Virus record (IMG/VR): IMGVR_UViG_2671180710_000015
Length of the DNA stretch: 8,566 nucleotides
From: a virus
Taxonomy: Duplodnaviria > Heunggongvirae > Uroviricota > Caudoviricetes
Strand: one strand, 5' to 3'
The notes below the pieces were generated by a model. The model searched no databases. It was not told the DNA's origin and was given only the letters and a program-made list of their open reading frames with translations. Of this stretch, positions 2,182-8,566 are shown one piece after another (the first letter of the stretch is position 1; every line of letters starts with the position of its first letter). A program made the translations under genes and the position numbers.

Positions 2182-2454
2182 TTAGCTGTCTGGGTAATTA
2201 CGCCATACTTCATCGCCTGCACCATCTATACCCATTTCAGCATAAGTGCGATCGACTGCCTTTCTCAGGTCTCCGAAGTTATCCGGCGGCTCCGGTGGCT
2301 TCTGTGCCTTCCTGGAACATTCCAGCCGTCGCATCGTAACCTGATACCGTTCCTTGTCTGTCTCCACCAGCTGCATGACTTCACCCCATCGCGCCGCCGC
2401 CCTCCGGTAAAATCCTTTCGCCTCGAGTTCCTCCGCTATGCGGTCATGTACCAT
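2182..2454 (-). CDS. PerC-family-like small transcriptional regulator (about 90 aa)
   Basis: Motif AEELEAKGFYRRAAARWGEVM resembles the remembered PerC/Pch signature. Start chosen at ATG 2452-2454 with a GGGGGTGAGG SD just after the SSB stop; the 126-aa track ORF would overlap SSB by about 100 nt. Confidence 0.5.
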   Translation of the reverse strand: MVHDRIAEELEAKGFYRRAAARWGEVMQLVETDKERYQVTMRRLECSRKAQKPPEPPDNFGDLRKAVDRTYAEMGIDGAGDEVWRNYPDS

Positions 2455-2464
2455 CCTCACCCCC

Positions 2465-2863
2465 TCAGAACGGAATACCATCACCGTAAGGGTCATCGCC
2501 TCCCGCTGGTGGCTGATTACCCTGTGTGCCTGTGGTTTTGCGTCTGTTCCCGCCTCGGGCACTGATTACGCTGTCTGCGATAACCTGCCAGCCCTGCCGC
2601 GTTTCGCCGTTCTGGCCTGTCCACTGGCTTACCTGCATCGTGCCGGATACGCTGGCAACATCGCCTTTTTGATGTTTAGCCAGGAAGTCGGCCTGTTTGC
2701 CAAATGCGATGACCGATAACCATAACGTCGCCTGTCCGTCCTGTGCCTGGCTGCATGGCAAAGATACCGCCATACGCGCCAGCGTCATCGGTGTGCCCTT
2801 GCTGGTCTGTTTTACCTGCGGGTCGTCCACCAGCCGCCCGTAAGCGGCTATCTGTGCCGTCAT
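2465..2863 (-). CDS. ssb: single-stranded DNA-binding protein
   Basis: OB-fold pattern WLSVIAFGKQADFLAKHQKGDVASVSGTMQVSQWTGQNGETRQGW and the diagnostic acidic C-terminal tail DDPYGDGIPF. GGAGAGG SD; ATGA start/stop overlap with the upstream ORF. Confidence 0.9.
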   Translation of the reverse strand: MTAQIAAYGRLVDDPQVKQTSKGTPMTLARMAVSLPCSQAQDGQATLWLSVIAFGKQADFLAKHQKGDVASVSGTMQVSQWTGQNGETRQGWQVIADSVISARGGNRRKTTGTQGNQPPAGGDDPYGDGIPF

Positions 2864-3119: not shown

Positions 3120-3315
3120 ACCTCTCACTTTTTCGCCTCACTTTTTCAAGCGTCTCACTTCGTCGCAGTTGGGATTTTCGGTTTTTCTATGTGTGTGTTT
3201 CATAAGTATTTTTTTACCCCCTCACTTTTGAGGATGTATACAGGTCGAAAAGTGAGGGAGAGCGGGCTAATTTTGGCCCTCTTTCTATCCCCCTCGCTTT
3301 TGCTCCTCACTTTTA
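3120..3315. repeat. iteron-type replication origin (seven CCTCACTTTT-like repeats plus AT-rich tract)
   Basis: CTCACTT cores at 3124, 3137, 3154, 3221 and 3306; inverted copy AAGTGAG at 3250; variant CTCGCTT at 3293. AT-rich tract about 3182-3218. Lies immediately 3' of the rep gene. Confidence 0.6.
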
Positions 3316-4710
3316 TAGCGGCGCTACATCATCCCCATCGATACGAATAACCCCATCTTTTTCCAGCTTGTACAGCCAGCGCCGGAAGTTTTTCATTTCA
3401 TACCCCAGCTTTTTCATGTCATCACGTAACAGCGGGATCGTGCACTTGTCGCCGTTCTGTGTGCGTGAACGGATGCACCCCCATAGCGCGGTATGGTTTT
3501 CCGTCTTGTTCCCTGCCTCCTCGATGCGCTCCAGTTCAACAGGAGGGCGCGGATCATCCACCACCACCAGCGACGTGATTAATTCACCGTCAGCGTCGGT
3601 AAAAAGCTCCACCACGCGTAAGTCATATGCGGCTTCTTTGAGTTCCTCCGCGTCCTTCATTTTGGTGCATGAGATAACCAGCGCTTCGCTTCCTGCGTCC
3701 TCCCTGCGTATCCGGTATTCAGCATCCAGCGAAGCACGAAATGCACTGGAACCGCGCGCGCCTTTCGTCTCATCCTTGCCGGAATGGTGAACCACCAGCA
3801 CCGTGGCCCCTGTGCGTCGTTTAAGCTCGTCACAACCACGGATAAACGCCCCCATATCACGGGAATCATTTTCATCATTCCCACCAAAGCAACGCGCCAG
3901 AGTATCCAGAATAATCATGCGTACAGGTTTACCCGTTTCCCGCTCCACCTGACGGGCAGCGATAACCATTTCATCAACATCAAGCGGGGCAGCCGGAAAG
4001 ATGGGACGGTTTACCAGATACAGATTTTTCACCTGTTCACCGTGCACAACCTCCCAGGCTTTTACACGACGCGGAACGCCGATACCGCCTTCACCAACCA
4101 CATAGAGAACCGCACCATGCGCCACCCTGCGGCCTCCCCACTGGCGGCCCGTGGAAACGTGACACGCCCACGATCCGGCAAGGAATGATTTATAGGAACC
4201 GCTCGCCCCGTATATGCTGCAAAGCGATACCGCCGGAATAATTCCCTTCACCACGTAATCAAGCTGCGTGTCGTATCCGGCAGATCCCACGCTCATTGGT
4301 AGCTTGGTTTTTCGCTGGTGGCTCAGGCTTTCCCCGCGTTCCCATGTCTCCCTAAGCCGTGGAAGCTGGTCGCTCCATTCCTCCAGCAATTCGAAATTTT
4401 CAGAAAACAGGCGCGCTTCCTGGACTCCTGCGATTGCCAGTTTCGTGGCGATGGTTAACAACTGCACTTCGTCAATATTTCCGGCACGTATCACTTTCGC
4501 CCTGTATCGCCCATCATCCACAATCTGGAGGTTATCCAGTTCGCTTAACTGATAACGCCCCAGGTAAACGGGAGGGACTGGATCGCCTGCTTTTTTGGCC
4601 TGTGCAATGATGTAGTACTCTGCAAATGAGTGAGCATTATCACCCGCAAAAATAACCGCTTCGGTGTGTTTATCTTTCGGTAACAGTTTTACGTTCGGTG
4701 CCAGTTTCAT
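3313..4710 (-). CDS. replication initiator/helicase (RecA-fold AAA_25, DnaB/RepA-like) with winged-helix-like C-terminus
   Basis: 465 aa. Walker A GASGSYKS, Walker B-like MIILDTLARCF, LVVHHSGKDETKGARGSSA. Not P4 alpha-like: no SF3, toprim or zinc-finger motifs seen. ATGA overlap with the upstream 99-aa ORF. Confidence 0.85.
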   Translation of the reverse strand: MKLAPNVKLLPKDKHTEAVIFAGDNAHSFAEYYIIAQAKKAGDPVPPVYLGRYQLSELDNLQIVDDGRYRAKVIRAGNIDEVQLLTIATKLAIAGVQEARLFSENFELLEEWSDQLPRLRETWERGESLSHQRKTKLPMSVGSAGYDTQLDYVVKGIIPAVSLCSIYGASGSYKSFLAGSWACHVSTGRQWGGRRVAHGAVLYVVGEGGIGVPRRVKAWEVVHGEQVKNLYLVNRPIFPAAPLDVDEMVIAARQVERETGKPVRMIILDTLARCFGGNDENDSRDMGAFIRGCDELKRRTGATVLVVHHSGKDETKGARGSSAFRASLDAEYRIRREDAGSEALVISCTKMKDAEELKEAAYDLRVVELFTDADGELITSLVVVDDPRPPVELERIEEAGNKTENHTALWGCIRSRTQNGDKCTIPLLRDDMKKLGYEMKNFRRWLYKLEKDGVIRIDGDDVAPL

Positions 4711-5006
4711 TTTTTACCCCTGAATCCGTTAATCATGGTTTTCAGCTTCTGGATGTTTTCCCGTGCTCTGGCGTTGCTGGTGGGCACGTTATGCGGCGCG
4801 GTCTGTACCAGAGAAAAATCACGCCGGAACTGATAAACAGGCATCACGCAATCATATTCGTAACCTTCACGGCGGTAAGTTACGCACCGTCCCGCCACGC
4901 CCTTAATCATTACCGTGCCGCCGTACTGGTCGCGGTAAATATCACCGCGCGTAAATTTAGGGTGAGTGTTGCCACTGGCAGTTAAGCCAGAATATTTAAG
5001 TTTCAT
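4707..5006 (-). CDS. hypothetical protein (99 aa) coupled to rep
   Basis: Track ORF. GGAGA SD 9 nt upstream of ATG 5004-5006; its stop overlaps the rep start. No family recognised. Confidence 0.55.
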   Translation of the reverse strand: MKLKYSGLTASGNTHPKFTRGDIYRDQYGGTVMIKGVAGRCVTYRREGYEYDCVMPVYQFRRDFSLVQTAPHNVPTSNARARENIQKLKTMINGFRGKK

Positions 5007-5011
5007 TATTT

Positions 5012-5239
5012 TTATTCTCCGGTGTGGGGCGCTTTATTATTTTCGATAATATCCATTGCCTTATCCAGTTCATCAATAACAGGCGATAGTAATGTCTGAA
5101 TGGCTGCAAACATTAATGACGAAGATTCTTCGCCAGATTCCGGCACTTCAATTAATTTGCCTAACAACGCATTCATTTCCTTTGCGCGGATTAATGCGTT
5201 TTCAGAATGAATAAGAACATCAAAGGGTATTTTATGCAT
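5012..5239 (-). CDS. hypothetical protein (75 aa)
   Basis: Track ORF, G-rich SD; 8-nt overlap with the upstream ORF and 5-nt gap to the downstream ORF. Predicted helical, acidic. Confidence 0.5.
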   Translation of the reverse strand: MHKIPFDVLIHSENALIRAKEMNALLGKLIEVPESGEESSSLMFAAIQTLLSPVIDELDKAMDIIENNKAPHTGE

Positions 5240-5429
5240 GACTCACCCCCTGGCGAATACGGGCGGCGAATACAGCAACACAACCGGACGGGCAACGGCT
5301 ACGCGCTTCGCGTTCCGTCCAGGCGGTTACGTGGATGATTTGAGATTCTCCGGCACTCAGTGCCAGAAAACGCCACACAAAGGCCGTTTGTGTGTGTGCT
5401 AGTCGTGGGGTATGATTTACGGCAACCAT
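5232..5429 (-). CDS. hypothetical protein (65 aa), first ORF of the rep operon
   Basis: Track ORF with AGAGAGG SD 7 nt upstream. Contains an 8-bp hairpin (CACACAAA-ggccg-TTTGTGTG, 5374-5394), so a structured leader RNA is an alternative reading. Confidence 0.35.
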   Translation of the reverse strand: MVAVNHTPRLAHTQTAFVWRFLALSAGESQIIHVTAWTEREARSRCPSGCVAVFAARIRQGVSHA

Positions 5430-5502
5430 AAATTTACCTCTCTATAGTGTTTGTGGTTAGACGCCCTGCATGTGTTCCAGCACTGTGGGGCGTTGTTTTT
5501 TG

Positions 5503-5547
5503 GTGCAAGTCACCTTGAAATCTAGGTTACTTTTAGGTGACTTGCAC
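5503..5547. promoter_or_regulatory. paired operator-like sites: 12-bp perfect inverted repeat GTGCAAGTCACC-N21-GGTGACTTGCAC
   Basis: Arms at 5503-5514 and 5536-5547 are exact reverse complements. Each arm is itself GGTG-N5-CACC-like. Located in the divergent region between the rep operon and the plus-strand RHH gene. Confidence 0.45.
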
Positions 5548-5574
5548 TTCAAGTCTTTTTTTATTTTTTTTTCT
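5539..5574 (+). terminator. terminator-like hairpin plus long T-tract (alternatively an UP element or insulator)
   Basis: GACTTG-cactt-CAAGTC (5539-5555) followed by T8-A-T10 (5556-5574). It overlaps the right operator arm and sits just upstream of a TATACT -10 (5578-5583). Confidence 0.3.
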
Positions 5575-5613
5575 CCGTATACTGAACACCACCTAACAGT
5601 AAGGAGAACAGAG

Positions 5614-5793
5614 ATGCCAACAGGTACAACCAACAACAAGTCACAACAAAAAACTGCTAGAGTACCTCTAGACGTTTTAAGCGAAATGAATTTGGTAAAA
5701 GAAGAAAACGAAACAGACGCACAATTTATCGTTACTGCCATGCGCGGCGAAATCAAACGCCGCCAGCGTCGCAAGGCCAAAGAATCAGAATAA
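5614..5793 (+). CDS. small ribbon-helix-helix-like DNA-binding protein (59 aa)
   Basis: Hand-defined start: AAGGAG SD (5601-5606) 7 nt before ATG 5614. MPTGTTNNKSQQKTARVPLDVLSEMNLVKEENETDAQFIVTAMRGEIKRRQRRKAKESE shows a strand-helix-turn-helix pattern. The 107-aa track ORF is an N-terminal over-extension across the operator and T-tract. Confidence 0.5.
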   Translation: MPTGTTNNKSQQKTARVPLDVLSEMNLVKEENETDAQFIVTAMRGEIKRRQRRKAKESE

Positions 5794-5850
5794 TCACTAT
5801 CAGCGCCGTGGTGTGAGGTACTACGGCGCATTGCTTTACAGGGCAGTACC

Positions 5851-6078
5851 ATGACCAACAACACACTATCACCAATACAAGACACGCAAACGCAAGATGA
5901 TGAAATCATCCGGCAAAGGCAGTCAGAAGCCTGCGCCAGACTTGAGGAAGAACTAACCAGAACAAAAATACCACCACCAGCGCCGCGCTTAGTGCCACCA
6001 GAAAAATTTGCCCTTGAAGATTTTGTCGATAAATACCCACGGCGGCTTAAATCCGGCAAAAACCGACCGCCAGGATGA
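5851..6078 (+). CDS. hypothetical protein (75 aa), acidic N-terminus, Pro-rich basic C-terminus
   Basis: Track ORF. Weak SD; preceded by hairpin GCGCCGT-N13-ACGGCGC (5803-5829) and followed by hairpin GAAACGG-attatt-CCGTTTC (6098-6117). No family recognised. Confidence 0.4.
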   Translation: MTNNTLSPIQDTQTQDDEIIRQRQSEACARLEEELTRTKIPPPAPRLVPPEKFALEDFVDKYPRRLKSGKNRPPG

Positions 6079-6297
6079 GTGCACAAAACCGAACTATGAA
6101 ACGGATTATTCCGTTTCCGGGGCGTTTGTGTGTGTATAAAGAGTAAGCTATGCTCTTTTATAGCCATAATCGTTACCTCAATTAATGGTTTGGTTAGAAG
6201 CCCGTTGGTGTTCATAGCGCCAGCGGGCTTTGCTTTTTGTGTTGATTGTGTGTAATATGTCACTACACATAAATACATTACATGAGGTGTAATTAAC

Positions 6298-6477
6298 ATG
6301 TCAATACACAAAAACGAAAGGCGTGGTAATCCTCCGTTCCAGTTCCGTTTAGATCCTGACTTACGGGAAAAGATGGAAAAGGCACAACAACATGACGGCG
6401 ATGATTCTCTTGCTGCCTGGATAAAGCGAATAATCCGCAAAGAATTACAGCAACGCGGCATAGAACCCAAAGGGTAA
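6298..6477 (+). CDS. Arc/MetJ-type ribbon-helix-helix DNA-binding protein (59 aa), below ORF-track cutoff
   Basis: Hand-translated: MSIHKNERRGNPPFQFRLDPDLREKMEKAQQHDGDDSLAAWIKRIIRKELQQRGIEPKG; PFQFRLDP strand plus two helices is the classic Arc-like pattern. GAGGTG SD; candidate promoter TTGCTT-N17-TAATAT (6230-6258); GTGTAAT repeats at 6250 and 6287. Confidence 0.6.
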   Translation: MSIHKNERRGNPPFQFRLDPDLREKMEKAQQHDGDDSLAAWIKRIIRKELQQRGIEPKG

Positions 6478-6565
6478 TTACATTGCCCACCAGCCTGATA
6501 GCGGCTATCATTCCCGTGCTTATGTTTGGGATCACATAAGGCGCAGCAGGTTAATTGTTCACAAG

Positions 6566-6594
6566 GGCGTTCCGGCAACGGGGCGCTTTTTGTT
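6566..6594 (+). terminator. intrinsic terminator (GNRA tetraloop hairpin plus U-run) closing the plus-strand module
   Basis: 9-bp stem GGCGTTCCG / CGGGGCGCT with three G-U wobbles, GCAA loop (6575-6578), then TTTTTGTT. Sits 28 nt from the convergent alpA stop. Confidence 0.5.
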
Positions 6595-6621
6595 ATGTTC
6601 ATCGTGTTATGCCTCACACCA

Positions 6622-6828
6622 TTACGCAGCCGTTCCGCGTGCTTCCTGCTCACGTTCTTTCATCCATGCGATTACGTCTTCCTCATACCATCCGCGACGG
6701 CGTAAACCAACGCGAAAACCCTGCGGAAATTCTCCGGCGTTGATCATGCTTTGAAGCGTGCTGTCTGCCTTGATGTGGATAAGTTTTTTTACTTCCTGGC
6801 GAAAGATGACTTTTTTGATTGCTTCCAT
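6622..6828 (-). CDS. alpA: AlpA-family phage transcriptional regulator
   Basis: 68 aa; STLQSMINAGEFPQGFRVGLRRRGWYEEDVIAWM matches the AlpA HTH family pattern. AAGG SD. Co-directional with int as in Gram-negative PICIs. Confidence 0.85.
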   Translation of the reverse strand: MEAIKKVIFRQEVKKLIHIKADSTLQSMINAGEFPQGFRVGLRRRGWYEEDVIAWMKEREQEARGTAA

Positions 6829-6905
6829 CGTGATTTACCTTGTGAATCCGGTGTATTCCGGTGACAAATACGGTAAATCATCGGATATGGGTAAAAACAG
6901 TTCCC

Positions 6906-6921
6906 ACCGTTTTTAAACGGT
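6906..6921. promoter_or_regulatory. 16-bp palindrome ACCGTTT-tt-AAACGGT upstream of alpA
   Basis: Exact 7-bp arms. A nearby direct repeat TCCGGTG occurs twice 10 bp apart (about 6847-6865). Candidate regulator or recombination-factor site; function not inferable from sequence. Confidence 0.3.
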
Positions 6922-6960
6922 TAGAATCGTTTTTTATGTTGGTGATTTGAAAGGGATTTA

Positions 6961-6995: not shown

Positions 6996-7247
6996 TTACC
7001 GCCATTTTTTTGGCCTGCCTCCGGTCTTCATGGTTGCCGGACGAACTACCCTGTCGATACTTTCAGCCATATTCCTGGATGCCCCACGGGATACCAGGAA
7101 ATCTACTACCTGTTTTTTTGATGGGGCCGTCGTTCTGTCCTCCGGATCGTAGGTTGACCAAAATTCATGCTGAACCATCAGGGCCAGTTGCAGCCCGTCG
7201 CAATTGCATCTGAAATTTTTTTGCATCTTAACGGTTTCATGTTTCAC
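6996..7247 (-). CDS. hypothetical protein (83 aa) downstream of int, basic C-terminus
   Basis: Track ORF. GTG start with weak SD (internal ATG at 7224-7226 is an alternative); followed 10 nt later by a terminator. No family recognised. Confidence 0.35.
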   Translation of the reverse strand: MKHETVKMQKNFRCNCDGLQLALMVQHEFWSTYDPEDRTTAPSKKQVVDFLVSRGASRNMAESIDRVVRPATMKTGGRPKKWR

Positions 7248-7324: not shown

Positions 7325-8566
7325 CTAAACGGCTCGGATACCCCTTTTACCACTGGCGAGGGTTACGCCCGTCGCCGCAGCCTCGACAAATTCGCCCCAC
7401 CAGCGCATAAGCACCACGCGTTTTTCTATGTAGTTGCTCCGGTTGTATGCCCGTCTCACTTCGTTAGTGTCGACGTGGGCAAGTGCGGCCTCGATTACGT
7501 CCGGCTCGAATCCTTCCTCGTTCGCTGCTGTACTGAATATGGCGCGTAATCCATGAGACACCAGCACGCCAGCGAACCCCATGCGTCGTAATGCTGCGTT
7601 TGCTGTCTGGCTGTTCATTGGCTGCCGTGGGTCTTTCAGACTCGGGAAAACATAATCGCGGTGGTGGCTGATTGGTTTCATGGCCTCCAGCACCGCCATA
7701 GCCTGACCGGAAAGTGGGATAACGTGATCCCTGCGCATCTTCATGCGTCCGGCGGGTATCGTCCAGCGTTGCGCGTCCAGGTCGATTTCATCCCACCGCG
7801 TTGATGACGCTTCGGCGGGACGGGTTACGGTCAGTAACTGCCATTCAATCAGTAATCTGGTCTGCCGTTCTGTTGCCGATACTGATAAAGCCTGCATAAG
7901 CTCCGGCAACTGTTCGGGGCGGATTGTTGGCATATGTTTTTTTACAGGGGAGGGGAACGCCTTACGCACATTCATAGCCGGATTGGCATCAATCAGCCCA
8001 CTGTTGGCGGCGTAATCCATTACCTCATTAACGCGCTGTAAAACCCGTTTGAGTGTTTCCAGGTTGCCGCGCTCCTTGATGGGGGTAAGCACCTCAACGA
8101 ACCTGCGAGCGGTCAGGGTGTCTATTGGGGTGTTGCCGATGAACGGGAATACATATTTATCCAGCGATCGCCAGATGTCTTTAATCGTGTTGGGGGCCAG
8201 ATTCTGGCTGATTTTCACCTGGTACCATGCCGCCGCCACATTTTCGAACGTGTTCCCTTGTCTTCGGGCCTCTGCCTCTCGTTTTTTCTTCTCATGGCCC
8301 TGCGGGTCAGTTCCGGCACTGATTAACGCTCTGTACTCGCTACGGCGTTTTCTGGCATCAGCCAGGGAAACATCATCAAGCGATCCAAAACTCAGCAATA
8401 TTCTTTTTTTGTCCGATGGCCGGTAGTAGGAAAATCGCCAGAGTTTTGATCCGGACGGTTTGACCAGGAGAAAAAGCCCTCCGCCGTCCTGTAGGGTGTA
8501 TTCCTTTTCCGCTGGTCTGGCTGCTTTGATCTGCACCGTGGTTAATGGGGGTGTTTTTCTCGCCAT
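7325..8566 (-). CDS. int: tyrosine-type site-specific integrase, P4-like
   Basis: 413 aa. N-terminus MARKTPPLTTVQIKAARPAEKEYTLQDGGGLFLLVKPSGSKLWRFSYY matches the P4-integrase arm-binding pattern; C-terminal HGLRAIFSTAA and RRAYNRSNY carry the His/Arg box and catalytic Tyr. ATG is the last codon of the window, so an upstream start cannot be excluded. Confidence 0.9.
   Translation of the reverse strand: MARKTPPLTTVQIKAARPAEKEYTLQDGGGLFLLVKPSGSKLWRFSYYRPSDKKRILLSFGSLDDVSLADARKRRSEYRALISAGTDPQGHEKKKREAEARRQGNTFENVAAAWYQVKISQNLAPNTIKDIWRSLDKYVFPFIGNTPIDTLTARRFVEVLTPIKERGNLETLKRVLQRVNEVMDYAANSGLIDANPAMNVRKAFPSPVKKHMPTIRPEQLPELMQALSVSATERQTRLLIEWQLLTVTRPAEASSTRWDEIDLDAQRWTIPAGRMKMRRDHVIPLSGQAMAVLEAMKPISHHRDYVFPSLKDPRQPMNSQTANAALRRMGFAGVLVSHGLRAIFSTAANEEGFEPDVIEAALAHVDTNEVRRAYNRSNYIEKRVVLMRWWGEFVEAAATGVTLASGKRGIRAV

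What the first reader, a model, noticed from the sequence alone, without database searches (positions are those of the whole stretch)
5430..6621. Counter-oriented AT-rich small-gene module with two RHH proteins between alpA and the rep operon
The island core genes are all on the minus strand, but this 1.2-kb block carries three plus-strand genes (RHH-like 5614-5793, unknown 5851-6078, Arc-type RHH 6298-6477). Each has its own SD, hairpins separate them, and base composition is visibly more A-rich than the flanking rep and int genes. Gram-negative PICIs are described as AlpA-activated without an Stl-like repressor, so a divergent RHH module here could be an uncharacterised master repressor or immunity switch, or an acquired small-protein accessory or defence cassette.
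Basis: partly seen in the sequence, partly recalled or inferred. Interest (0 to 1): 0.75.

Follow-up and report, generated by a model that had tools for sequence, protein, structure and literature searches.

The report
Satellite control switch: repressors plus antisense RNA
The counter-oriented block in this phage satellite is most likely its hidden on/off control region, made of two small DNA-binding repressors and two copies of a previously undescribed antisense RNA, in a group of satellites for which a 2018 study called the existence of a repressor unclear.

Summary
Three plus-strand genes lie at 5614-5793, 5851-6078 and 6298-6477. ORF1 (YlcI/YnfO family) and ORF3 model as ribbon-helix-helix (RHH) folds, and the block is A-rich.

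Two copies (5416-5504, 6154-6241) of a conserved ~80-nt plus-strand RNA lie upstream of ORF1 and ORF3. It has strong covariation, plus-strand-specific G·U pairs and an intrinsic terminator. It is antisense to the Shine-Dalgarno sequence and start codon of the first leftward gene.

The same RNA precedes nearly every ORF3 homologue in about 80 loci from Enterobacterales, Orbales, Pasteurellaceae and Aeromonadaceae. An alpA-like gene converges on it in about 50. It is also present in the prototype island EcCICFT073.

Inverted repeats that differ with the RHH variant overlap predicted leftward promoters.

The whole block is also antisense to a 1.2-kb open frame running from the alpA stop to the icd start (0 of 5000 shuffles reach it).

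Best reading: a tandemly duplicated RHH-plus-antisense-RNA immunity switch on the icd-rep operon, overridden by AlpA-driven read-through. It is not a defence cassette. All regulatory roles are inferred; no expression or binding data exist.

The parts
5232..5429 (-). icd-like gene, first gene of the leftward icd / DUF4222 / RepA-type helicase operon; the predicted target of the switch
   Evidence: NCBIfam NF033153, 64.8 bits. PHROG 29966 and 1743.
5388..5416 (+). Predicted promoter of RNA copy A (-35 TTGTGT 5388-5393, 17 nt, -10 TATGAT 5411-5416)
   Evidence: Read from the sequence. A TAnnnT hexamer ends 4-11 nt before the GCCAT anti-start motif in 57 of 59 distinct copies, and exactly 8 nt before it in nearly all of them. 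Promoter activity is inferred.
5416..5504 (+). Structured RNA copy A. Its 5' end and stem-1 loop are complementary to the icd start codon and Shine-Dalgarno sequence. Stem 2 plus a U-run forms a terminator.
   Evidence: Model R2, trained without Escherichia or Shigella sequences, scores it 73 bits, E = 1.8e-15, on the plus strand only. Fold z-score -3.85. Covariation and strand test.
5503..5547 (.). Perfect 13-bp inverted repeat GTGCAAGTCACCT / AGGTGACTTGCAC; predicted operator of ORF1
   Evidence: The repeat sequence differs with the YlcI variant in three other modules.
5524..5552 (-). Predicted leftward promoter P_L(A) (-35 TTGAAG, 17 nt, -10 TAACCT), embedded in the inverted repeat
   Evidence: Read from the sequence. 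The same -35 / 17 nt / -10 layout is seen in L002, L003a and L003b. Inferred.
5578..5583 (+). Predicted -10 (TATACT) of the ORF1 promoter, downstream of a T-tract
   Evidence: Conserved as (C/G)GTATACTGAA in the YlcI-type modules of L001, L002 and L003b, and as GCATACTGCA in L003a. Inferred.
5614..5793 (+). ORF1, a YlcI/YnfO-family ribbon-helix-helix protein (59 aa)
5803..5829 (+). Hairpin followed by AUUGCUUU between ORF1 and ORF2; possibly a weak terminator or attenuator
   Evidence: The same hairpin separates ORF3 from ORF4 in L001.
5851..6078 (+). ORF2, a small protein of unknown function with a conserved C-terminal motif (75 aa)
6123..6167 (-). Remnant of an icd-like 5' end (MAIKEHSLLFIHTQT), left by duplication or insertion of module A
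   Evidence: Alignment of 5340-5580 with 6078-6300. Translation.
6149..6154 (+). Predicted -10 (TATGCT) of RNA copy B
6154..6241 (+). Structured RNA copy B. It can also pair in trans with the icd translation start.
   Evidence: R2 scores it 69.8 bits, E = 1e-14. Fold z-score -5.56. Duplex with the icd start region is -38 kcal/mol, against -26.8 +/- 4.3 for shuffles.
6230..6258 (+). Predicted ORF3 promoter (-35 TTGCTT 6230-6235, 17 nt, -10 TAATAT 6253-6258)
   Evidence: Read from the sequence. Conserved GTAATGTGT block in 40 loci. Inferred.
6251..6295 (.). Repeats TGTAAT / ACACAT / ATTACA / GTGTAAT; predicted operator of ORF3
   Evidence: Consensus GTAATgTGTcAttACACAtaAAtACAtTAca..GTGTAATT across 40 loci. 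No extra copies elsewhere in the window.
6277..6304 (-). Predicted leftward promoter P_L(B) (-35 TTGACA over the ORF3 start codon, 16 nt, -10 TGTAAT)
   Evidence: TTGACA-16-T(G/A)TAAT is present in 20 of 40 type-I loci, with close variants in four more. Inferred.
6298..6477 (+). ORF3, a ribbon-helix-helix protein (59 aa); conserved core gene of this satellite group
6563..6597 (+). Intrinsic terminator closing the plus-strand block
5457..6602 (-). Long 'bridging' open frame (381 codons from ATG 6602). It starts 20 nt after the alpA stop, with a GAGG Shine-Dalgarno sequence. It is antisense to the whole block and ends at the TAA in the linker of RNA copy A, 28 nt before the icd ATG.
   Evidence: No family match.
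6622..6828 (-). alpA-like gene, convergent with the block
   Evidence: Pfam Phage_AlpA E = 0.003, below the cut-off. PHROG 66 and 2790. Iterated HMM.

Best explanation
The block is the regulatory (immunity or maintenance) region of an AlpA-type phage satellite. Here it is present as two tandem modules.

Each module has three parts:
- an ~80-nt plus-strand RNA that ends in an intrinsic terminator and is exactly antisense to the Shine-Dalgarno sequence and start codon of the first leftward gene;
- a small ribbon-helix-helix (RHH) protein;
- in module A only, a small ORF2-type protein.

Module A is RNA-A, ORF1 and ORF2. It faces the intact icd-rep operon. Module B is RNA-B and ORF3. It is the widely conserved form. 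It was separated from the operon when module A was inserted, which left a stump of icd.

Proposed mechanism (inferred throughout): in the resting island, the RHH dimers bind the inverted repeats that overlap the leftward promoters P_L(A) and P_L(B). The antisense RNA blocks translation of any leaked icd-operon mRNA. Replication and the toxic Icd-like protein therefore stay off.

On helper-phage infection, AlpA drives leftward transcription from its own promoter. This transcription runs antisense across the whole block. A long open frame that starts beside the alpA stop lets ribosomes follow the polymerase up to the icd start. That would protect the transcript from premature termination, open the leader structure, and interfere with expression of the repressors and the RNA.
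For: SHOWN BY COMPUTATION

RHH folds:
- ORF3 is under strong purifying selection in its own frame.

The RNA:
- 14 of 20 base pairs show compensatory changes and 96.7% of cells are paired. None of 500 shuffles reaches any of the measures.
- There are 145 G·U pairs on the plus strand against 7 A·C, so the structure is selected on the plus strand.
- Covariance-model hits are on the strand of ORF3 in every one of the roughly 80 loci retrieved with ORF3. They lie about 50-90 nt upstream of the RHH gene, one copy per RHH gene.
- A model trained without Escherichia or Shigella sequences recovers both window copies.
- A TAnnnT hexamer ends 4-11 nt before the RNA's GCCAT motif in 57 of 59 copies, and exactly 8 nt before it in nearly all.
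- The stem-1 loop is CCUC and the 5' end is GCCAU. These are the complements of the leftward gene's Shine-Dalgarno sequence and AUG.

Operators and promoters:
- The inverted repeats differ with the RHH variant and overlap conserved leftward -35/-10 pairs.

Genomic layout:
- The order leftward operon, then RNA and RHH, then a convergent alpA recurs. ORF3 is always opposed to int. An AlpA-like ORF converges on it in about 50 loci.
- The layout is also present in EcCICFT073 and in the Pasteurella element Pmp8.

Bridging frame:
- It is 1200 nt long. None of 5000 dinucleotide shuffles reaches that length; the longest was 858 nt.
- The alpA-to-RNA interval is completely open in 11 of 50 loci, against 0.04 expected.
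- In EcCICFT073 the frame runs directly into Icd.

FROM THE LITERATURE
- AlpA activates PICI genes, and a reporter fused to 'ORF3' downstream of alpA was AlpA-dependent. [quoted passage not shown] - AlpA of Pseudomonas aeruginosa acts as an antiterminator (PMC7969949 abstract).
Against: - There is no transcript, binding or genetic evidence for any step.
- All promoters were read by eye. The consensus scan listed none of them. P_L(A) has a weak -10 (TAACCT).
- In the window, the conserved module B no longer abuts an intact target gene, so ORF3's role here may be redundant or vestigial.
- The bridging frame is out of frame with icd in this window. It is interrupted in about 20 of 66 loci.
- Its amino-acid sequence matches nothing.
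- ORF2 shows no clear frame preference: pN/pS is 0.47 in its own frame and 0.50 in the antisense frame. Its function is unknown.
- Published work describes Gram-negative PICIs as transcribed in one direction.
Confidence: 0.6

Rival explanations
1. Toxin-antitoxin reading, in two forms. In the first, the antisense RNA is a type I antitoxin whose only job is to silence the toxic Icd-like cell-division inhibitor, as SymR does for SymE. In the second, each RHH protein is a type II antitoxin and the ORF2-type protein after it is the toxin. Either way the block would stabilise the island rather than control its life cycle.
For: - Icd-like proteins are annotated as host cell-division inhibitors.
- The only Rfam match near the RNA is SymR, at 25.9 bits and E = 0.16. 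The layout is the same as SymR: cis-antisense over the Shine-Dalgarno sequence and AUG.
- An RHH gene followed by a small gene is a typical type II toxin-antitoxin layout (ORF1-ORF2 here, ORF3-ORF4 in L001).
Against: - The SymR score is far below the family cut-off of 61 bits.
- The RNA is equally conserved where the first leftward gene is Ash-like, integrase-like or something else, not Icd.
- ORF3 has no conserved downstream partner in most genera and has none in this window.
- The ORF2 family matches no toxin or defence family.
- The RHH operators overlap leftward promoters, not only the RHH genes' own promoters.
Confidence: 0.15
2. The conserved RNA is not an independent antisense regulator. 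It is a cis-acting 5' leader or attenuator of the RHH mRNAs. Transcription would start inside the leftward gene, and the terminator would tune how much RHH protein is made.
For: - The RNA always lies on the same strand as an RHH gene and about 50-120 nt upstream of it, one copy per RHH gene.
- In module A, a second hairpin and T-run (5539-5565) share bases with the large inverted repeat. That could form alternative structures.
Against: - The most conserved single-stranded parts are the exact complements of the opposite gene's AUG and Shine-Dalgarno sequence. A leader would have no need for that.
- Conserved -35/-10 pairs for the RHH genes lie downstream of the terminator.
- The U-run is a typical full terminator in most loci.
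Confidence: 0.15
3. The plus-strand ORFs are annotation artefacts. The real gene would be the long minus-strand ORF, an N-terminally extended Icd or Eta-like protein, in line with the published one-direction description of these islands.
For: - The minus-strand frame is open far beyond chance.
- It is continuous with Icd in EcCICFT073 and several other loci.
- RefSeq annotates an 'Icd-like' pseudogene over the equivalent DNA in strain RM8385.
Against: - ORF3 keeps its start, stop and length in 65 of 65 loci. The antisense frame is broken in 16 of those 65.
- pN/pS is lower in the plus frame in 11 of 12 ORF3 comparisons, by about half in nine of them.
- ORF1 passes a curated NCBIfam cut-off.
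- The N-terminal extension matches no family. Matches begin only after the conserved ATG inside the RNA unit.
- The two readings do not exclude each other.
Confidence: 0.05
4. The block is an acquired accessory or anti-phage defence cassette of small proteins, unrelated to control of the island.
For: - It differs in composition from its flanks.
- It is mosaic among E. coli islands: only 5 of 952 matching genomes cover 80% or more of the block.
- Satellites are known to carry defence genes near this position (PMC10085698).
Against: - There are no PADLOC matches.
- ORF3 and the RNA are conserved in position and sequence across four orders or families.
- The truly variable genes lie downstream of ORF3.
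Confidence: 0.05

Closest known systems
Phage P22 immI region (Arc and Mnt RHH repressors plus the sar antisense RNA) - recalled from my own knowledge, not from a paper read here
   Different: The controlled genes here are an icd-like gene and a replication operon, not an antirepressor. The RNA is a different, larger two-hairpin molecule. The element is a satellite with AlpA. A long open frame lies antisense to the repressor genes.
Satellite P4 immunity region (vis / eta / kil, CI RNA), as summarised in PMC10111431
   Same: A long ORF is translationally linked to the alpA homologue. Its short C-terminal form is a cell-killing or division-inhibiting protein. The immunity RNA gene lies inside that long ORF. 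Read-through from an upstream late promoter overrides immunity. In EcCICFT073 the 428-codon frame runs into Icd.
   Different: The P4 CI RNA is on the same strand as eta and acts by causing termination. Here the RNA is on the opposite strand, covers the Shine-Dalgarno sequence and AUG, and comes with RHH proteins. There is no Rfam C4 or isrK match. In this window the long frame is not in frame with icd.
Phage P1 immI (c4 RNA - icd - ant)
   Same: An icd gene at the head of an operon is held off by a small RNA.
   Different: C4 is co-transcribed upstream on the same strand. There is no Rfam C4 hit here, no ant gene, and RHH proteins are present.
Plasmid copy-number control by an RHH repressor plus a countertranscript RNA (pMV158 CopG and RNA II; R1 CopB and CopA) - from my own knowledge
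   Different: In pMV158 the repressor is the first gene of the rep operon itself. Here it is divergent from the operon and convergent with alpA. The replicon is an integrated satellite.
SymR / SymE type I system
   Same: A ~77-nt cis-antisense RNA overlaps the Shine-Dalgarno sequence and start codon of a toxic gene. It gives a weak Rfam match.
   Different: The score is 25.9 bits against a cut-off of 61. The structure, genomic context and target are all different.
Gram-negative PICI and capsid-forming PICI (EcCICFT073, EcCIEDL933)
   Same: The window carries int, alpA, a RepA-type helicase, SSB, PerC, a small terminase and a major capsid protein. L001 shows the full capsid-forming gene set. 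EcCICFT073 carries the same YlcI, ORF4-type gene and RNA module.
   Different: [quoted passage not shown] The counter-oriented module is not mentioned in any paper I could find.

Membership tests
Ribbon-helix-helix (Arc/MetJ/CopG) superfamily | A domain of about 45 residues with two helices after a short N-terminal strand | tested here: met
Ribbon-helix-helix (Arc/MetJ/CopG) superfamily | The N-terminal strand pairs with a second subunit to form the DNA-reading ribbon (obligate dimer) | not testable with these tools
   Only monomer models were possible. In ORF3 the N-terminal segment is unstructured. In ORF1 residues 8-14 are modelled as a helix. The sequence patterns FQFRLD-P (ORF3) and KTARV-P (ORF1) resemble Arc's strand followed by a proline; this comparison is from my own knowledge.
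Ribbon-helix-helix (Arc/MetJ/CopG) superfamily | Sequence-specific binding to short repeated or inverted sites | not testable with these tools
   Candidate sites exist, and they differ with the protein variant.
YlcI/YnfO family (NCBIfam NF041551) | Score above the curated cut-off of 30 bits | tested here: met
   ORF1 scores 61.7 bits. ORF3 scores only 17.6 bits and is not a member. A profile-profile comparison of ORF1 with ORF3 gives E = 0.023, in register but weak.
Gram-negative PICI / capsid-forming PICI | int, alpA and a primase or replicase in order, followed by packaging or capsid genes, with no tail or lysis genes | tested here: inconclusive
   The window holds int, an alpA-like gene, an AAA_25 helicase, SSB, PerC, a small terminase and a major capsid protein. 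It ends inside the capsid gene, so the absence of tail and lysis genes cannot be checked. The relative L001 has the full capsid-forming set.
Gram-negative PICI / capsid-forming PICI | Induction by a helper phage through AlpA | not testable with these tools
   Known for EcCICFT073 and EcCIEDL933.
C4 / isrK / P4 CI immunity RNAs (Rfam RF01695, RF01394) | Match to the Rfam covariance model | tested here: not met
   No hit anywhere in the window, even at E <= 1.
SymR antitoxin RNA (Rfam RF01809) | Score at or above the gathering score of 61 bits | tested here: not met
   25.9 bits, E = 0.16, at 5424-5497.
Type II toxin-antitoxin module with an RHH antitoxin | A conserved toxin gene immediately downstream in the same operon | tested here: not met
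   For ORF3, the downstream gene is absent or unrelated in most of 49 loci and absent in the window. For ORF1-ORF2 the test is inconclusive: ORF2 is a conserved partner in E. coli but matches no toxin family.
P4-type eta/kil arrangement | A long ORF starting beside the alpA homologue and containing the immunity region | tested here: met
   The frame is open over 5460-6659, with ATG at 6602 and a GAGG Shine-Dalgarno sequence 20 nt after the alpA stop. The interval is fully open in 11 of 50 loci, against 0.04 expected.
P4-type eta/kil arrangement | The short killing or division-inhibiting protein is the in-frame C-terminal part of the long ORF | tested here: not met
   In the window the frame stops 28 nt before the icd ATG. 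The feature is met in EcCICFT073 and in L005, L012, L033, L054 and L057. Sequence homology to P4 Eta was not tested.
Anti-phage defence systems (PADLOC) | Match to any defence-protein model | tested here: not met
   No match for ORF1, ORF2, ORF3, the long ORF, icd-like or the next gene.

The most novel reading that the evidence does not exclude
AlpA-type satellites of Gram-negative bacteria, including the prototype EcCICFT073, may share an unrecognised bistable switch. It would be built from convergent transcription over DNA that codes on both strands.

On one strand lie a new family of cis-antisense small RNA and an RHH repressor, which keep the replication operon silent.

On the other strand lies a translated 'bridging' frame. 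It is conserved for being open, not for its protein sequence. It would couple alpA to the operon so that AlpA-driven transcription can run over and shut down the repressor genes.
Probability: 0.35. Interest if true: 0.85.

Novelty: new variant of a known kind. Interest (0 to 1): 0.78.

Why it matters
How Gram-negative phage-inducible islands stay silent is an open question. [quoted passage not shown]

This analysis puts forward concrete, testable candidates:
- a conserved RHH protein;
- a new structured antisense RNA with strong covariation;
- defined operator sequences and promoters.

All of these are also present in the experimentally tractable EcCICFT073.

The analysis also argues that the 'one-direction' gene map needs revising.

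It describes a long stretch that is open on both strands. That would be a clean system for studying translation-dependent read-through and transcriptional interference.

The RNA family is absent from Rfam. It occurs in satellite-like loci from Escherichia to Xenorhabdus, Gilliamella, Pasteurella and Oceanisphaera. Its model could improve satellite detection and annotation.

Tried and rejected
- **Rfam scan of the whole window at E <= 1.** It returned only a sub-threshold SymR hit and a spurious archaeal snoRNA hit.
- **Automatic promoter scan.** It found none of the promoters proposed here, because it requires 9 of 12 matches and an A at position 2 of the -10. All promoters are therefore hand-read.
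- **PDB sequence search with the ORF3 profile.** Nothing significant. Fold comparison was needed instead.
- **Profile-profile comparison of ORF1 and ORF3.** Weak (E = 0.023), so common ancestry is not shown.
- **Codon-position analysis to tell sense from antisense coding.** Uninformative, because third codon positions coincide in the two frames. I used stop-codon counts and pN/pS instead. For ORF2, pN/pS does not discriminate.
- **Search for extra operator copies near the alpA promoter.** None found beyond chance.
- **DNA search of the phage collection.** No match. The protein search found only the satellite-sized Pmp8 and three weak hits.
- **Coordinate guesses for EcCIEDL933.** One accession was not in the collection, and the coordinate guess in the resequenced EDL933 genome returned an unrelated lambdoid prophage. 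I did not pursue it.
- **Literature searches.** I searched for YlcI/YnfO function, for a PICI repressor or antisense RNA, and for the RNA and operator sequences as text. Nothing relevant was found.
- **Defence-cassette idea.** Rejected.
Full report
**Context**

The window is part of an AlpA-type phage satellite of the capsid-forming PICI kind. All of the following genes are on the minus strand:
- integrase, 7325-8566
- a small ORF, 6996-7247
- an alpA-like gene, 6622-6828
- an icd-like gene, 5232-5429
- a DUF4222 gene, 4707-5006
- an AAA_25 / RepA-type helicase, 3313-4710
- SSB and PerC
- a small terminase, 1087-1692
- the start of a major capsid protein, 1-927

The closest E. coli relative is L001, 95% identical over the block. 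It continues into protease, portal, head-closure, connector and HNH genes.

**Checking the observation**

The three plus-strand ORFs are present as described, and RefSeq annotates them in relatives.

ORF1 is a curated YlcI/YnfO family member, scoring 61.7 bits against a cut-off of 30. ORF3 matches the PHROG 'Arc-like repressor' family at E = 4e-6.

- for ORF3: AmrZ, NikR, Arc, ORF56 and PcfF
- for ORF1: MatP, RHH-type MazE, TacA, CopG-family proteins, NikR, KacA and ParD

ORF2 has no family match in any library searched. It belongs to a very small family: 19 representatives in 1.84 billion proteins. Members have variable N-termini and a conserved C-terminal motif, FALEDFvxKYPRRLKSGKNRPPG.

The A-richness is real.

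Regions 5383-5505 and 6121-6242 are paralogous. Each folds into two hairpins followed by a U-run, with z-scores of -3.85 and -5.56.

I fetched 80 loci around ORF3 homologues from species-representative genomes. The same element lies about 50-90 nt upstream of essentially every homologue.

An alignment of 51 copies gives a consensus structure with these properties:
- 14 of 20 pairs carry compensatory changes, and 96.7% of cells are paired.
- None of 500 shuffles reaches any measure, and sliding the partner columns collapses the signal.
- The plus strand has 145 G·U pairs against 7 A·C. The structure is 96.7% paired on the plus strand and 83.1% on the minus strand, so it is selected on the plus strand.

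A covariance model finds 87 copies, all on the strand of ORF3. There is one before each RHH gene, including the three RHH genes of L003.

A second model, built without any Escherichia or Shigella sequence, recovers both window copies at 73 and 69.8 bits. The minus strand scores only about 12 bits.

Rfam has no such family. The best hit is SymR at 25.9 bits against a cut-off of 61.

The RNA's first bases (GCCAU) and its stem-1 loop (CCUC) are the complements of the start codon and Shine-Dalgarno sequence of the first leftward gene. A -10-like TAnnnT hexamer ends 4-11 nt upstream of GCCAT in 57 of 59 distinct copies, and exactly 8 nt upstream in nearly all. This holds even though the hexamer lies inside coding sequence for different proteins.

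I therefore read it as an independently transcribed cis-antisense RNA of about 80 nt. Transcription itself is inferred.

**The block is two tandem modules**

- **Module A** is RNA-A (5416-5504), an operator-like inverted repeat (5503-5547), ORF1, a hairpin (5803-5829) and ORF2.
- **Module B** is a 15-codon stump of an icd-like gene (6167-6123, minus strand), RNA-B (6154-6241), operator-like repeats (6251-6295) and ORF3.

In L001, ORF3 is followed by the same hairpin and by ORF4, which is an ORF2 paralogue. In most other genera ORF3 stands alone. The DNA between ORF3 and alpA is a variable cargo slot.

In simple loci such as L004, L005, L009 and L014, the icd-like gene and ORF3 form a directly divergent pair. 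The window's arrangement therefore looks like insertion of a YlcI-type module between the conserved ORF3 module and the operon.

**Conservation and distribution**

ORF3 is 73-95% identical at the protein level in most of the genera recovered, with a second group at about 50-60%. These include Escherichia/Shigella, Serratia, Pantoea, Erwinia, Yersinia, Xenorhabdus, Providencia, Gilliamella and Frischella. Pasteurellaceae and Oceanisphaera/Oceanimonas carry the more divergent form.

- ORF3 is intact in 65 of 65 loci.
- Its pN/pS is 0.06-0.15 in nine of the ten usable comparisons, about half the value in the overlapping antisense frame.
- It is always opposed to int.
- In about 50 loci an AlpA-like gene converges on it from 50-2500 nt downstream.

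Parts of the block match 952 of 5426 complete E. coli genomes, but only 5 cover 80% or more of it. The block is therefore mosaic within the species.

The module is absent from true phage genomes. The one exception is the 15-kb Pasteurella element Pmp8, which has the same layout.

The prototype EcCICFT073 carries the module in the same position. It has a YlcI gene, an ORF4-type gene and the RNA (58.5 bits).

**Operators and promoters (hand-read, inferred)**

For the ORF3 type, 40 loci share this consensus: GTAATgTGTcAttACACAtaAAtACAtTAca..GTGTAATTgAcGTGTCAA.

- The left arm contains a rightward -10. In the window this is TTGCTT-17-TAATAT, 6230-6258.
- The right arm contains a leftward -10 whose -35 (TTGACA) is formed by the first codons of ORF3. 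In the window this is TTGACA-16-TGTAAT, 6304-6277. It is present in 20 of 40 loci, with near variants in others.
- The two promoters face each other.

For the YlcI type, each protein variant has its own inverted or repeated sequence. The window has GTGCAAGTCACCT, L003b has GTGTATTTCACCT, and L003a has three copies of GTGTTGAACAC. In all four variants the repeat wraps a leftward -35 / 17 nt / -10 pair.

This matching of site to protein variant is what an operator-repressor pair would show.

RNA-B can still pair in trans with the icd translation start. The duplex energy is -38 kcal/mol, against -26.8 +/- 4.3 for shuffles; 7 of 500 shuffles reach it.

**An unexpected long open frame on the other strand**

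The minus strand is open for 1200 nt, from 6659 to 5460. A GAGG Shine-Dalgarno sequence and an ATG at 6602 sit 20 nt after the alpA stop. The frame ends at the TAA inside the conserved GGUUAGA linker of RNA-A, 28 nt before the icd ATG.

The length is not explained by chance:
- None of 5000 dinucleotide shuffles reaches it; the longest was 858 nt.
- Piecewise tests that preserve the plus-strand proteins multiply to about 1e-6.

Across loci:
- A long minus-strand frame runs through ORF3 in about 47 of 66 loci. It ends either at the same linker TAA or in frame with the leftward gene.
- The whole interval from the alpA stop to the RNA is stop-free in 11 of 50 distinct loci, against 0.04 expected. 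Several of these loci are closely related, so they are not independent.
- In EcCICFT073 a 428-codon frame starts 53 nt after alpA and runs directly into Icd. This is probably the 'ORF3' whose reporter fusion was AlpA-dependent in PMC6092414; the identification is my inference.

The extension matches no protein family. Family matches begin only after the conserved ATG.

The frame thus seems conserved for being open rather than for what it encodes.

The nearest precedent is P4 eta. It is coupled to the alpA homologue and contains the immunity region, and its translation prevents termination (PMC10111431).

**Mechanism proposed**

In the resting state, the RHH proteins would occupy the operators over P_L, and the antisense RNA would block the icd-operon translation start.

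After helper-phage infection, AlpA-driven transcription would run leftward across the block. Three published observations make this plausible:
- AlpA activates its own promoter;
- an AlpA homologue in Pseudomonas acts as an antiterminator.

Ribosomes on the bridging frame would keep the transcript translated up to the icd start. The convergent transcription would also interfere with expression of the RHH genes and the RNA.

What is shown by computation:
- the folds;
- the RNA structure and its strand;
- the complementarity to the translation start;
- the conserved layout;
- the non-random open frame.

What is inferred:
- every promoter;
- DNA binding;
- repression;
- the role of translation;
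- the direction of the switch.

**Comparison with known systems**

The logic resembles four known systems:
- P22 immI (Arc and Mnt plus sar RNA);
- P1 immI (c4, icd, ant);
- the P4 immunity region;
- plasmid copy control by CopG plus RNA II.

The comparisons with P22 and the plasmids rest on my own knowledge.

It is not a member of the C4/isrK or SymR RNA families, because both Rfam tests failed. ORF3 is not a YlcI/YnfO member by the curated cut-off. For ORF3, the type II toxin-antitoxin criterion of a conserved downstream toxin is not met.

**Verdict**

- The 'immunity switch' interpretation is supported by comparative evidence. The 'defence cassette' interpretation is not.
- The region contains two features that none of the papers I could search describe: a new antisense RNA family, and an open frame antisense to the whole block.
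- I rate it a new variant of a known kind of control region, with high interest.

Noticed in passing
window 6893-6934: Upstream of alpA lie two 20-nt units, AAAAACAGTTCCCACCGTTT and AAACGGTTAGAATCGTTTTT. They read as both direct and inverted repeats. They sit just after the terminator at 6987-6966 and could be binding sites for AlpA or for the helper-phage inducer.
   Followed up: no
window 5657-5671 (minus strand): A terminator-like hairpin plus T-run (CTAGAGGTACTCTAG CAGTTTTTTG) lies on the minus strand inside ORF1. Leftward read-through transcripts would have to pass it.
   Followed up: no
window 5539-5565: A small hairpin (GACTTG...CAAGTC) plus a long T-tract shares bases with the 3' arm of the 13-bp inverted repeat. 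Two mutually exclusive plus-strand structures are therefore possible, which looks attenuator-like.
   Followed up: partly
window 6478-6500 compared with L001 9051-9330: The ORF4 gene found after ORF3 in E. coli relatives is absent here. ORF3 ends in IEPKG, as it does in other genera, so ORF4 looks like an insertion in some E. coli islands rather than a loss in this one.
   Followed up: partly
L085 23983-24168 (EDL933 lambdoid prophage): A phage-borne YlcI/YnfO gene is also counter-oriented. It sits alone on the opposite strand between the lysis genes and the HNH and terminase genes. No copy of the RNA motif is nearby.
   Followed up: partly
L084 2902-3909 and L003 2911-3249: Related E. coli islands carry 'ash family' and 'Icd-like' pseudogenes on the sense strand between alpA and icd. 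These are signs of repeated recombination at this spot.
   Followed up: partly
L006, L010, L020, L057 (4 nt after the ORF3 stop); L040, L045, L054: In some genera ORF3 is followed at once by a small lipoprotein-like ORF of 47-53 aa. In others it is followed by a second RHH-like ORF. L066 has a larger gene in the cargo slot, which I did not identify.
   Followed up: no
window 6996-7247 (minus strand): The 83-aa ORF between int and alpA has no family match. It has a 43%-identical counterpart in the same position in a Gilliamella locus (L044).
   Followed up: no
window 2435-2500 (minus strand): There is a sub-threshold Rfam hit to an archaeal C/D-box snoRNA (sR1, 18.6 bits against a cut-off of 45). 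It lies inside the SSB/PerC coding region and is almost certainly chance.
   Followed up: no
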